DNA of 19,276 nucleotides from Eledone cirrhosa (Eukaryota). A program made the translations under genes and the position numbers. This document shows, piece after piece, positions 1,795 through 16,975 of this stretch (its first letter is position 1; each line of letters starts with the position of its first letter). The notes under the pieces are model-generated. The model saw only the letters and a program-made list of their open reading frames with translations. It was not told where the DNA came from and searched no databases. The stretch spans positions 1 to 19,276 of the forward strand of contig CAXHJY010000989.1 of assembly GCA_964016885.1 (NCBI GenBank), given 5' to 3'.

Positions 1795-1836
<42 letters not shown>

Positions 1837-1845
<9 letters not shown>

Positions 1846-2258
1846 TAAACAAATAATGAATAAAACAATGAAACAGTTCCTTATATTAAACAAAAAAAAG
1901 TTCATTATTTAAACGATCGTTTCTAGGATATATATGTGTTAGAATTGGCATGCATATTCAACAGATCTATGTACAAAATTATACAAACTATCAAGATTAA
2001 ATATACATACCAAACACACATATACGCCGTCTTCAGAAATAATTATTTCTGAAGACGGCGTATATGTGTGTTTGGTATGTATATTTAATCTTGATAGTTT
2101 GTATAATTTTTGTATAATTTTGTACATAGATCTGTTGAATATGCATGCCAATTCTAACACATATATATCCTAGAAACGATCGTTAAATAATGAACTTTTT
2201 TTGTTTAATATAAGGAACTGTTTTCATTGTTTTATTCATTATTTGTTTAATATTTTAT
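1837..2258. repeat. 422-bp spacerless inverted repeat (palindrome), probably an inverted PLE pseudo-LTR duplication
   Basis: Axis between 2042/2043 (CTTCAGAAATAA|TTATTTCTGAAG). Arms are 206 and 216 nt and differ only by an 11-nt duplication (TTGTATAATTT) in the right arm and three 1-nt homopolymer indels. The left arm starts at a (TA)n tract. Confidence 0.95.
2042..2191 (+). ncRNA. Type I hammerhead ribozyme-like motif with extended stem II (mirror copy on minus strand of left arm)
   Basis: Stem I ATTATTT 2042-2048 / AAATAAT 2185-2191; core CTGAAGA 2049-2055; long stem II 2056-2172; GAAAC 2173-2177; palindromic stem III ACGATCGT; cleavage triplet GTT 2182-2184. The stem II base is non-canonical (C...A). 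Confidence 0.65.
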
Positions 2259-2411
2259 CTTGACTCTGGATACCGTTTATCTTTCACCGAAAGTGATTTT
2301 TCATTACATCTCTTCTTTCCATGATATCCGGAATACATTGAGTTCTTCATACGGATTGGGACACTACCGTAAACTCTTGGTAGATTTATCTACATATATA
2401 TATATATATAC

Positions 2412-2557
2412 AAAATAGCTAACTGAATAGTTCCTTTCTCTTCGTACACTTTTCTTTCTATTTATCTTCTATTTCGAAATCTATCTTCTGATGAAAGACT
2501 AATGTCCGAAACGTTAAGACTCTCTGTCTACAATTTCTGTTTATCTTTTACATACCC

Positions 2558-3579: not shown

Positions 3580-3822
3580 CATACATATGTGTGTATATAT
3601 ATATATATATATACATACATATGTGTGTATGTATATATATATATATATATATATATACATACATACATATGTGTGTATGTATATATATATACATATGTGT
3701 GTATGTGTGTATGTATATATATATATATATATATATATACATACATACATATGTGTGTATGTATATATATATACATATGTGTGTATGTATGTATTTATAT
3801 ATATTTGTATATATATATTTGT
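2559..3822. repeat. Higher-order microsatellite: ACATACATATGTGTGT(ATGT) units separated by (TA)n
   Basis: Direct reading; the left part uses the variant GCACATACATACATGTGTGT. Source of the YI/HTY-repeat ORFs. Confidence 0.97.
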
Positions 3823-4480
3823 GTCAGGTCACCAGTTGGTGCTACTGGTAACATGTATCCCAGAACAATCTGTCCCATGGTCGGGTCGTTGGCGACTAAA
3901 CTGGCAACCCTACCAAGTTTTCTTGGTGAGGAGGGTGATTTTGGACATCCTAAAGGACTAAAAACAAAACCTGTCAAAGGGCAAAGGAGCTCTTAAGAGT
4001 CAATGGCCATCCAAAATCACCGGGAGAGATGACCCCTTAGCCTTTGTCAAGGCAGAATTCTAGCAGAAGGAAAATTCTGATATAACACCTGCAACCCTGA
4101 TGGTATCCAATGATGTTGACTTGTTCTTCTTTTTGGTAAATATCATCTTGGTTAAGAGAGTGGGACTGGCTTTGTGCAGTGCTTTTGCTCCCTATAAAAG
4201 CTTCACGGCACAGGCATTACTTTATATCTGGAGATCTCTCAGAACTTGTCGTCACATGGTACCATGGGCCCAGCACTATGTGTCAATAATTGTCACAAGT
4301 GTAGTGTTTGTACCAGAGTTTTCAAGTTGCTGGCCCGAATAAAAAATAATACTCGTTCAGCCCATCGGTAGGGGTTCTCCTACATGGATATAAAGTAGTG
4401 GCCCTACTCGAAAACGAGTTGGCAGCGCTCTGGTAACGAACTACTGAAAACTCAACGTCGAAACCAACGAATGATTGATC
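3823..4480 (+). mobile_element. Interspersed repeat, probable RTE-type LINE 5' leader/UTR
   Basis: The first 205 nt recur at 10194-10398 (13 substitutions, no indels by my count). CTAGCAGAAGGAAAATTCTGAT near 4060 resembles a motif I recall from RTE leaders. More GC-rich than the flanks; right boundary approximate. Confidence 0.6.
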
Positions 4481-9012: not shown

Positions 9013-9141
9013 TATATATATATATGCATATATATATATATATATGTATATATGAATATATATATGTGTATATATGAATATATATATGTGTATATATGAA
9101 TATATATATGTGTATATATGAATATATATATGTATATATGT
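9013..9141. repeat. (TA)n microsatellite with GAA/TGTG interruptions
   Basis: Direct reading. Confidence 0.9.
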
Positions 9142-9775
9142 ATATACGTGAACGACGCAGTAATATACGTGAACGACAAAGTATAAATGAATTGAGAGAG
9201 AGACTGAGCATAAGAGGAATCAAATGCTGTGTGCAGGAGAGGCGGTTGCGCTGGTATGGACATGTGATGCGTATGAAGGATGATAGCTGCATAAAAAGGT
9301 GCAGAGCACTAGAAGTTGATGGAAACCGAGGAGTGGGGAGACCCAAGATGATCTGGGATGAGGTGATAAAAGCCGACCTTACCCAATTACACCTCTCAAA
9401 GACAATGACACACGACCGTGACTTCTGGCGTCACGCAGTAATACAGAGTACCCGACCTCCCATGGGTACAAGCTGAAGCATATAGACAATATGCCCCCAC
9501 ACCTCCCACCGCAAGGTGGTCGTGGAGGTGCCACGGCAAAAAAGCACCCAGCCCACACTGTAAAGTGGACGTGTAGGCGCCACGAAAAAGCACCCAGCAC
9601 TCACTGTAAATGAGGTTGGTGTTAGGAACGGCATCCAGCTGTAGAAATCAAGCCAGATCAGTTCCTGTATGAGCAAGGCATGGTCAGCCGACCAGACACT
9701 GCCCACAACAGGACAACCCGTCTAACCCATGCTAGCGTGGAAGAACGGACGTAAAATGGTGATGATGATGATGAT
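9142..9775 (+). mobile_element. 5'-truncated RTE-clade LINE: ORF C-terminus, 3' UTR and (GAT)n tail
   Basis: Open frame to the stop at 9476: [29 protein letters not shown]...[23 protein letters not shown]...DRDFWR (RLRW.GHV.RM, GRP..W and DR..WR are RTE hallmarks); GATGATGATGATGAT tail 9761-9775. Confidence 0.92.
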
Positions 9776-10193: not shown

Positions 10194-10196
<3 letters not shown>

Positions 10197-10398
10197 AGGT
10201 CACCAGTTGGTGCTACTGGTAACATGTATCTCAGTACAACCTGTCTCATGGTCGGGTCGTTGGCGACTAAACTGGCAACGCCACCAAGGTATCTCGGTGA
10301 GGAGGGTGACTTTGGACATCCTGTAGGACTAAAAACAAAAGCTGTCAAAGGGCAAAGGAGCTCTTAAGAGTCAATGGCCATCCAAAATCACCGGGAGA
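10194..10398 (+). mobile_element. Second, truncated copy of the 3823 repeat (first 205 nt)
   Basis: ~94% identical to 3823-4027; same start (GTCAGGTCACC) after a TA tract; ends in a TA tract. Confidence 0.9.
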
Positions 10399-12885: not shown

Positions 12886-13040
12886 TGTATGTATGTATGT
12901 ATGTATGTATGTATGTATGTATGTATGTATGTATATATGTATGTATGTGTATGTATGTGTATGTATGTGTATGTATGTGTATGTATGTATGTATGTATGC
13001 ATGTGTATGTATATGTATGTATGTATATGTATTTATGTAT
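10714..13040. repeat. ~2.3-kb compound microsatellite grading from (TA)nTG to (ATGT)n
   Basis: Direct reading; source of the 807/812-aa low-complexity ORFs. Confidence 0.97.
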
Positions 13041-13437
13041 GGCCACCTCCATATTATATGGTGGGTTATACCAACAAATGCGACGGGATGTATTTCTTCT
13101 CGGTCTATTTTCGTACTCTGTATCTGCTACCTTATCGACAAATCCACTCCGAGCAAGAGCTTCATTGTAATAAGTGGAATGGTCGTTGAAAATATGCTCG
13201 TTAGTAGATAGACGGGAAAGTCTCTACGAAACGTTTCTTACCAGGTTCTCGGTTATGCTGGCAGGATGGTTGGAATGAATACTTATGTAATTAAGCGTAT
13301 CATTCGGCTTTCTATACGGGTAATACAACCCATTCAATAAATTGAGGGTAACGTCGAGGTAATTAACGACCGAGAGATTGGCCTCAAGTTGATGTCATCC
13401 TCAATGCCCGTAAGTCGGTGATTAATTTCGACGACTC
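13041..13437 (-). mobile_element. Penelope-like element RT C-terminal/thumb-linker fragment (pseudogenised)
   Basis: Manual minus-strand translation with frameshifts and a stop at 13224-13226: [81 protein letters not shown]...[15 protein letters not shown]. The YLDV, PYRKP, SNHP and W.NPP motifs are PLE-type. Confidence 0.85.
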
Positions 13438-16784: not shown

Positions 16785-16975
16785 TCTTGGTGCCCTAAGC
16801 TCAGCTCCCGCCGGGCCCGTGTGTGCCTTTTATATTTTTTTGACTGCTGGTGCCCTTACCTCAGCTCCCGCTTACCCCATGTGTGCCGTTTGTATTTATT
16901 CTAACTCTTGGCGCCCATAGCTCAGCTCCCACAGAGCCCGTGTGTGCCTTTTATCGTTTCGGGTCGATAAAATGT
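16785..16975 (+). repeat. Three ~60-bp tandem units inside a diverged SINE
   Basis: Units start near 16785, 16846 and 16906 (TGGTGCCC..AGCTCAGCTCCCGC...GTGTGCC); the last runs into the SINE core GCCTTTTATCGTTTCGGGTCGATAAAATG. Confidence 0.75.

What the first reader, a model, noticed from the sequence alone, without database searches (positions are those of the whole stretch)
2042..2191. Hammerhead ribozyme with an unusually long, G-U-stabilised stem II
Seen: the two HHR core boxes (CTGAAGA 2049-2055; GAAAC 2173-2177 plus GTT) are 117 nt apart, yet are closed by a 7-bp stem I and bridged by a long hairpin. 2072-2088 pairs with 2135-2151 over 17 of 17 positions, and all three non-Watson-Crick pairs are U-G wobbles on the strand carrying the core; GTATATGTGT/ACACATATAT adds 10 more pairs. 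Known: Penelope-like elements carry type I HHRs with palindromic stem III in their pseudo-LTRs, usually with a short stem II. Inference: a long-stem-II HHR family that standard descriptors could miss. Caveat: the stem II closing pair is C-A rather than R-Y.
Basis: partly seen in the sequence, partly recalled or inferred. Interest (0 to 1): 0.85.

Follow-up and report, generated by a model that had tools for sequence, protein, structure and literature searches.

The report
Retrotransposon hammerhead with giant stem II
A Penelope-like retrotransposon in this animal genome carries, in about 12,700 places, a hammerhead-ribozyme motif whose normally short second arm is replaced by a folded domain of 90-120 bases with compensating base changes between element families, a likely self-cutting RNA (cutting is untested) that the published search pattern is too narrow to find.

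Summary
2042-2191 is a type I hammerhead in the pseudo-LTR of a young Hydra-clade Penelope-like element. The window holds only a truncated, head-to-head pair of its ends, inserted in (TA)n. The two-box pattern with a 90-120 nt spacer occurs 12,743 times in the genome (reversed control 11). Families with inserts only 40-60% alike keep both boxes, vary where hammerheads tolerate change (N7; H17 = A, C or U, with no G family), and show compensatory changes in stem I and domain II. Domain II is a long hairpin in one lineage and a three-way junction in another. Stem I of 4 bp or more closes 93 of 103 copies, against 0 of 120 metagenome pattern matches. Published Hydra-clade hammerheads have 3-7 bp stems with 3-10 nt loops, and Rfam misses these. 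The C·A 'closing pair' is the extra N10/N11 known in this group. Cleavage is not shown: copies do not pile up at the cut site, and no RNA run was listed. Truncated copies begin mostly at the first base of stem I, a likely RNA start. Earlier scan notes had only compact Penelope hammerheads. Verdict: new structural variant of a known ribozyme class.

The parts
2042..2048 (+). Stem I, 5' strand. A2042 is the preferred 5' end of truncated copies (likely RNA start, inferred).
   Evidence: 7/7 pairs with 2185-2191; 16 of 31 truncations start here
2049..2055 (+). Catalytic box I (C3-A9); N7 is A here and A, G, C or T across families
2056..2172 (+). Expanded domain II (117 nt): C·A, 2 bp, C·C, 13-bp helix, bulge, 17-18-bp helix, internal loops, apical hairpin
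   Evidence: folds; pair counts
2173..2184 (+). Box II (G12-A14), 2-bp stem III with a palindromic loop, and the N-U-H triplet; predicted cut 3' of 2184
   Evidence: the palindrome pairs between two molecules at -10 to -11.8 kcal/mol
2185..2194 (+). Stem I, 3' strand (10 bp with the native upstream sequence, 7 bp in this copy)
2195..2258 (+). Pseudo-LTR up to the short 3' end (one of two element ends)
   Evidence: inverted arms end at query base 216 in 8 rows
2259..2393 (+). 135-nt optional tail ending in a small terminal hairpin (2380-2393); the long 3' end
   Evidence: all 30 loci end here before a TA-type repeat
1837..2042 (-). Mirror arm: second copy of the hammerhead (box I 2036-2030, box II 1923-1919) ending at the short 3' end. 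It lacks 11 nt of the apical region and has one extra T at the cut site.
1795..1839 (.). (TA)n target microsatellite, left flank
2394..2410 (.). (TA)n target microsatellite, right flank

Best explanation
This is the type I hammerhead motif in the pseudo-LTR of a Hydra-clade Penelope-like retrotransposon, with stem II expanded into a 90-120 nt folded domain that shows compensatory changes between element families, and it likely still cuts its own RNA after base 2184, slowly and likely only as a dimer or with the element's protein. Shown: the element (813-aa RT + GIY-YIG ORF, 6.4-kb tandem unit, hammerhead on the sense strand 3.5 kb after the stop codon and 0.5 kb before the next ATG), the copy number, the conserved core, the covariation, two 3' ends, and a sharp 5' boundary at the first base of stem I. 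Inferred: (1) the element's RNA starts at that base, so in a tandem the hammerhead is the first 150 nt of the transcript. (2) Reverse transcription from the two tail ends to this RNA start makes the short solo and head-to-head copies, including the one in the window. (3) The 2-bp stem III is unstable alone, and two motifs pair through the 8-nt palindrome to form the active core. (4) Domain II points away from the core, so its length is tolerated, and its fold is kept for a second job, most likely a protein-binding or folding platform that delays cutting. Uncut RNA would be the usual template. The window copy itself is probably inert, because a read-through transcript would fold the two arms into one long duplex.
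For: Element context. Hydra-clade motifs: against PMC8557442 section 11. Counts: 12,743 against 11. G at position 17 only 30 times, scattered singly over families, while A, C and U each mark whole subfamilies. Inserts of different lineages are 37-60% identical, yet the core is the same. Covariation: 18 of 48 pairs change on both sides in 26 hairpin-lineage copies, and 15 of 36 in 11 branched-lineage copies; 0 of 500 shuffles reach this, and slid registers fall to 27-58% paired. G-U outnumbers A-C 81:38 and 23:15 on the sense strand. Stem I of 4 bp or more: 93 of 103 copies and 15 of 19 cluster representatives, against 0 of 120 metagenome matches to the same pattern. A subfamily found by adjacency, not by my pattern, has a different stem III and still keeps both boxes, GUC, stem I and the branched domain. 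Precedent for slow, dimer- or protein-dependent cutting and for uncut RNA as template: PMC4209133, PMC11167929.
Against: There is no direct sign of cutting. Copies beginning at the cut site number 37, against 27 at a control base 5 nt away, and 12 of the 37 are stem I microhomology joins. The monomer hammerhead fold lies 3-4 kcal/mol above the predicted minimum, stem III has p of 0.04 or less, and with the window's downstream sequence stem I has p = 0.00. The window's lineage lacks the G10.1-C11.1 pair (C·A, then 2 bp, then C·C). Families were mostly collected with the core in the search pattern, so core invariance is partly built in. The covariation shuffles ignore relatedness, and I hand-picked the rows. 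One lineage (family F, 9 copies) gave only a weak consensus fold (-3.55 kcal/mol, 11 pairs). 9 of 19 cluster representatives failed at least one of three structure tests. Families E and F are not tied to an ORF. The RNA-start reading rests on DNA junctions only; the sharp 5' boundary is not seen in family E.
Confidence: 0.68

Rival explanations
1. The fold is real and selected, but the ribozyme no longer cuts. The core and domain II serve as a binding site for the element's protein, or domain II mainly holds the internal promoter just after the RNA start.
For: No excess of copies starting at the cut site. The active fold is weak in prediction. In the Anolis element, hammerhead mutants do not affect insertion in vitro and no RNA reads end at the cut (PMC11167929). 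Penelope has an internal promoter just after its start site (PMC2377424).
Against: Position 17 is A, C or U but no family has G, and N7 is free; that is the pattern catalysis demands. A DNA promoter would not need compensatory pairs or a G-U bias on one strand.
Confidence: 0.22
2. The insert is a spliceosomal intron; splicing leaves a compact hammerhead.
For: Donor-like and acceptor-like words lie inside the insert in families A-D (read). In Drosophila virilis Penelope an intron end overlaps the hammerhead (PMC4209133).
Against: By eye, no precisely spliced copy among the 100 listed of 125 short-spacer matches or the 100 listed of 172 medium-spacer matches; the deletions seen have scattered ends. 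The acceptor-like word at box II is absent from families E and F. The donor-like word sits in a helix that keeps pairing.
Confidence: 0.05
3. The hairpin is a microRNA-like or MITE-like insertion and the two boxes flank it by accident, or the whole thing is a by-product of the local palindrome or of assembly.
For: The motif sits in a 206-bp inverted repeat on a small unplaced contig, and AT-rich repeats pair easily. Rfam gives sub-threshold miRNA matches around 2003-2104.
Against: 29 other loci carry one identical ~345-nt stretch on many contigs, most without the palindrome. Inserts with little sequence likeness sit between the same boxes. Chance matches never close stem I (0 of 120). The miRNA scores are far below gathering thresholds.
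Confidence: 0.03

Closest known systems
Hammerheads of Hydra-clade Penelope-like elements (Craig et al. 2021, PMC8557442, File S2), including Hydra-1_Obim of Octopus bimaculoides
   Same: Type I, sense strand, near the 3' end of a (TA)n-targeting C-terminal GIY-YIG element; unpaired N10/N11 at the base of stem II.
   Different: Listed Hydra motifs have stem II of 3-7 bp and loop 2 of 3-10 nt. Here the insert is 52-117 nt, as a long hairpin or a three-way junction. Stem III is 2 bp with a palindromic loop rather than 3-4 bp. The unit is 6.4 kb with a 3.5-kb 3' UTR (published: under 3 kb), and the tail is 135 nt (published for PLEs: 30-40 bp).
Minimal hammerheads (min-HHR) of metazoan Penelope-like elements (Cervera and De la Pena 2014, PMC4209133)
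   Same: Pseudo-LTR location, short palindromic stem III suited to dimers, head-to-head pairs, extra nucleotide after A9.
   Different: The descriptor caps stem II at 7 bp and loop 2 at 10 nt; 'larger than usual' there means 7-8 bp.
Selaginella PLE-X1 hammerheads (PMC8557442 File S2, marked as deviating)
   Same: The longest domain II found in that table (9-bp stem with a 35-nt loop in PLE-X1_sMoe).
   Different: About half the length, drawn as an open loop, a plant element lacking the endonuclease, and no covariation reported in what I read.
Discontinuous Clec2 hammerheads of mammals (Martick 2008; seen through review PMC2950038)
   Same: A large insertion splits the core and hides it from ordinary patterns.
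Non-LTR retrozymes (PMC7229834; bioRxiv 10.64898/2026.07.22.740005)
   Same: Family E is a non-coding head-to-tail unit with one type I hammerhead per unit.
   Different: The unit is about 700-770 nt (typical about 300), the ribozyme has a branched domain II, and circular RNA was not tested.

Membership tests
Type I hammerhead ribozyme | CUGANGA and GAAA boxes with C3-G8 and a free N7 | tested here: met
   N7 is A, G, C or T across clusters
Type I hammerhead ribozyme | A15.1-U16.1 pair and an N-U-H triplet (H not G) | tested here: met
   GUU here; GUA and GUC in sister families; G only 30 times, as scattered singles
Type I hammerhead ribozyme | Stem I closes the junction and covaries | tested here: met
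   93 of 103 copies against 0 of 120 controls; 7 of 10 and 3 of 4 pairs change on both sides
Type I hammerhead ribozyme | Stem II begins next to the core, usually with G10.1-C11.1 | tested here: inconclusive
   C·A, then 2 bp, then C·C in the window's lineage; G-C, U·U or A-U in family E. An unpaired N10/N11 is allowed by the min-HHR descriptor, and U·U occurs naturally.
Type I hammerhead ribozyme | Self-cleavage 3' of H17 | not testable with these tools
   indirect genomic footprint not found
Type I hammerhead ribozyme | Loop 1-loop 2 tertiary contact of fast hammerheads | not tested
   not required in min-HHRs; no pseudoknot search was run
min-HHR descriptor (Cervera 2014) and Rfam hammerhead models | Stem II 3-7 bp and loop 2 3-10 nt; score against an Rfam hammerhead model | tested here: not met
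   insert 117 nt; no hammerhead among 22 matches for 5 copies or among the 150 shown of 423 window matches
Hydra clade of Penelope-like elements | [quoted passage not shown] | tested here: met
   813 aa, YRDD at 346, YIG at 707; Pfam gave no significant family
Hydra clade of Penelope-like elements | DKT instead of DKG; RWK motif; no GxKF/Y | tested here: met
   DKT at 115; RWR (conservative variant) at 37-39; no GxKF/Y match
Hydra clade of Penelope-like elements | CxCX5C linker; CxxC and CxH around the conserved E and N | tested here: met
   673-681, 771-774, 799-801
Hydra clade of Penelope-like elements | Insertion into (TA)n; tandem and inverted pseudo-LTRs with an optional tail | tested here: met
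Hydra clade of Penelope-like elements | Groups with the Hydra clade in an RT tree | not tested
Non-LTR retrozyme (family E only) | Non-coding tandem units with one type I hammerhead each | tested here: met
   periods of about 700-770 nt in L129, L137, L139, L154; longest frame 93 aa in the L139 stretch
Non-LTR retrozyme (family E only) | Monomeric circular RNA | not testable with these tools
   no RNA data

The most novel reading that the evidence does not exclude
A natural class of active hammerheads in which domain II has grown, more than once, into an independent 50-120 nt folded module (long hairpin or three-way junction). The module sits at the very start of the retrotransposon RNA and works as a switch: uncut, the RNA is the template for reverse transcription; cut, it sheds a 142-nt capped leader with a -42 kcal/mol hairpin and four upstream AUGs and is translated without a cap. 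Such motifs would explain some Penelope-like families now listed as lacking a hammerhead or as having only a 'half core'.
Probability: 0.25. Interest if true: 0.85.

Novelty: new variant of a known kind. Interest (0 to 1): 0.66.

Why it matters
Hammerhead censuses rely on patterns that cap stem II and loop 2. One genome here holds about 12,700 motifs outside that cap, so counts in animal genomes may be far too low. Craig et al. 2021 report Naiad elements as lacking canonical hammerheads, searched cores only 7-17 nt apart, and mark eight 'half core' cases, two of them in cephalopods; a long domain II is a direct, testable alternative. The related families form a natural series (20, 52-65 and 95-117 nt; hairpin and branched) around one core. 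That series is a ready panel for asking how much stem II can carry, and what Penelope hammerheads are for, which is still open. The sharp 5' boundary gives a simple model for how head-to-head insertions arise.

Tried and rejected
Expression: no RNA holder was listed. Contigs of four public runs hold pieces of the stretch; this shows presence only. Cleavage footprint: 37 against 27, not enriched. Intron in the element's 5' part: my first reading of L022 was wrong; the junction is an inversion. Nematis clade: first guess, dropped for Hydra after the motif check. 'Long domain II is clade-wide': rejected. A sister family picked by protein alone (about 45% identity) has a compact stem II in all 10 loci that showed the whole motif, of 20 fetched, and a compact 20-nt family shares the same stem III. 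Two apparent 65-nt inserts (L261, L262) are decayed compact copies with a second box I upstream and were dropped from the size series. Six junctions at the 5' boundary are SINE insertions, not truncations, and were removed from the count. A cap-derived G before the 5' boundary is seen in 10 of 29 junctions (p 0.018 against 17% G), but the test was post hoc, the rows are not independent and C cannot be scored, so it is a hint only. Linking families E and F to an ORF: no firm link. The family F consensus fold is weak. Lunse et al. 2017 is not held. Arkhipova et al. 2017 and Repbase/Dfam annotations were not seen and could describe similar motifs.

Full report
OBSERVATION. The left arm (1837-2042, minus strand) is a second copy of the same motif and differs by four indels. 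Both arms end in (TA)n.

WHAT IT BELONGS TO. A search of the own genome (3.0 Gb; probably an octopod, my inference, not tested) with 2043-2400 gave 447 candidates. The 40 scored were 99-100% identical, and 29 of 29 other loci fetched carry one identical ~345-nt stretch, so the family is very young, though these were the top hits. Longer loci show the element: an 813-aa ORF, a 3.5-kb microsatellite-rich 3' UTR, the hammerhead on the sense strand, then the end. The head-to-tail unit is 6,421 nt, and the tandem junction is present in 4 of 15 long loci. The protein has DKT, RWR, CxCX5C, YIG, CxxC and CxH and lacks GxKF/Y, which matches the Hydra clade as defined in PMC8557442 (section 11 read). 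No tree was built. The element has two 3' ends, at window 2258 and 2393, so its optional tail is 135 nt. The window copy is therefore a head-to-head pair of 5'-truncated pseudo-LTRs with no ORF.

IS THE LONG DOMAIN REAL? The pattern box I - 90 to 120 nt - box II - stem III - H matches 12,743 times; the reversed pattern matches 11 times. Excluding the window's own context exposed other families (870 and 936 matches). 103 distinct copies fell into 19 clusters whose inserts are 37-60% identical between lineages. Families A-D (the window's lineage) fold as long hairpins and lie downstream of related ORF ends at 60-97% identity. Family E folds as an 8-9 bp stem opening into a three-way junction. 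Family F folds as irregular hairpins with only a weak consensus. On 26 hand-picked natural copies of A-D, 18 of 48 pairs change on both sides and 89.6% of cells pair; on 11 copies of E, 15 of 36 and 93.4%. No shuffle of 500 reached these double-change counts, and slid registers paired only 27-58%. These shuffles ignore relatedness, so the numbers are not probabilities. G-U exceeds A-C on the sense strand (81:38 and 23:15), as expected for RNA rather than DNA structure.

CONTROLS FOR CIRCULARITY. Families were mostly collected with the core in the query, so I ran three checks. First, the same pattern in metagenomes gave 120 matches, none with a stem I of 4 bp, against 93 of 103 copies here. All three structure tests were passed by 10 of 19 cluster representatives and by 0 of 120 controls. 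Second, allowing G at position 17 gave 30 matches, scattered singly over known families (spacer 80-110, so the denominator differs), whereas A, C and U each mark whole subfamilies. Third, a subfamily met by adjacency in L139 has a different stem III and still keeps both boxes, GUC, a covaried stem I and the branched domain. Against generality: a sister family chosen by protein alone has a compact stem II (10 of 20 loci showed the whole motif, all compact). A compact 20-nt family and 52-65 nt families share the same stem III. The long domain is thus a feature of a subgroup, with a size series around one core; the direction of change was not tested.

THE 5' BOUNDARY. Of 63 copies taken in contig order (40 regions chosen's list plus the 30 loci; family A-C type with an intact box I only), 26 continue upstream for 25 nt or more and 37 break sooner. 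Six of the 37 are independent SINE insertions. Of the other 31, 16 begin exactly at the first base of stem I, 27 within 4-8 nt of box I, and none at 12-24 nt. Both arms of the window's palindrome begin at that base. I infer that it is the RNA's 5' end. Penelope's start site and internal promoter lie in the pseudo-LTR (PMC2377424, passages), and the Anolis element starts reverse transcription at two internal sites that define the tail and extends both strands (PMC11167929, parts 1-2 of 4). A short cDNA from each tail end to the RNA start, joined head to head, gives the window's structure. Family E shows no such boundary.

DOES IT CUT? Not shown. Copies starting at the cut site are not enriched (37 against 27 at a control base; 12 of the 37 are stem I microhomology joins). 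This fits uncut RNA being the template, as reported for the Anolis element, but it also fits a dead ribozyme. The monomer fold is 3-4 kcal/mol above the minimum and the 2-bp stem III is rarely formed, while the palindrome pairs between molecules at -10 to -11.8 kcal/mol. Metazoan min-HHRs cut weakly and as dimers (PMC4209133, parts 1-2 of 4), and the Anolis motif needs protein. I put cutting in some form at about 0.7 and the whole mechanism at 0.68. With the RNA start at stem I, a cut would release a 142-nt leader with four AUGs, leaving 360 nt and six more AUGs before the ORF. Cleavage-driven cap-independent translation is reported for viral hammerheads (PMC13725137, abstract and passages); applying it here is speculation.

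COMPARISON WITH WHAT IS KNOWN. The min-HHR descriptor allows stem II of 3-7 bp, loop 2 of 3-10 nt and an extra N10/N11 (supplement passages; one supplement file was not searched). All Hydra-clade motifs in File S2 of PMC8557442, including one from Octopus bimaculoides, are compact, most with an unpaired U·U at the base of stem II. The longest domain II in that table is a Selaginella motif with a 35-nt loop (supplement part 2). U10.1-U11.1 occurs in natural hammerheads (PMC3088659, passages). Large insertions are known for loops 1 and 3 (PMC2950038, passages). 'Long helix II' in the 2026 virus paper means 6-8 bp. Rfam found no hammerhead in five copies. Seven full-text searches turned up no natural hammerhead with a 90-120 nt domain II. 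Lunse et al. 2017 was not held, and Arkhipova et al. 2017 and repeat databases were not seen, so novelty is bounded by these searches. Also seen, as passages only: PMC6765202, PMC7229834, bioRxiv 10.64898/2026.07.22.740005 (part 1 of 5). Earlier scan notes held only compact Penelope hammerheads on other DNA.

VERDICT. It works like a min-HHR by anatomy; it fails the published descriptor only on the size of domain II; its catalytic activity is untested. New variant of a known kind, interest 0.66.

Noticed in passing
window 2484-2519 (+): A compact type I hammerhead (4-bp stem I, 13-nt stem II region, palindromic stem III) of another Penelope-like family, ending at about 2557 before (TA)n; a similar motif is in L196.
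   Followed up: partly
L050, L055, L056, L057, L059, L067 (just before box I): A tRNA-like SINE has inserted six times independently (different 5' ends and duplication lengths) at the first bases of stem I, among the 30 loci: an insertion hot spot inside the ribozyme.
   Followed up: partly
L129, L137, L139, L154: Family E occurs as non-coding head-to-tail units of about 700-770 nt with one branched hammerhead each, retrozyme-like; 4,166 first-look candidates for a 301-nt piece.
   Followed up: partly
L198, L200, L203, L207-L210, L212-L214 (3' ends); window 13040-13223 (-) is a fragment of this family: A sister Hydra-type family has a compact hammerhead-like motif with A instead of U at core position 4 in all 10 loci that showed the whole motif: a possible natural core variant.
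   Followed up: partly
L256, L261, L262: A compact family carries a second box I 45 nt upstream of the first, with a similar stem I strand; a possible route to longer domain II, or an alternative fold.
   Followed up: no
12 of 37 rows: Junctions where the reverse complement of box I and stem I runs straight into the sequence after the cut site, as expected if the cDNA end folds back on its own stem I.
   Followed up: no
L039:3663-6104: The protein has a low-complexity stretch (about residues 472-583) that relatives do not align to.
   Followed up: no
window 9078-9476 (+); 3818-4000 and 10194-10367; 16785-16954: A LINE-like fragment (RTE-like, by recalled resemblance), two copies of another repeat next to microsatellites, and a 60-61 bp tandem repeat of 2.8 copies.
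   Followed up: no
L302 (metagenome locus): A pattern match with a strongly folding 98-nt insert (z -8.1) but no stem I.
   Followed up: no
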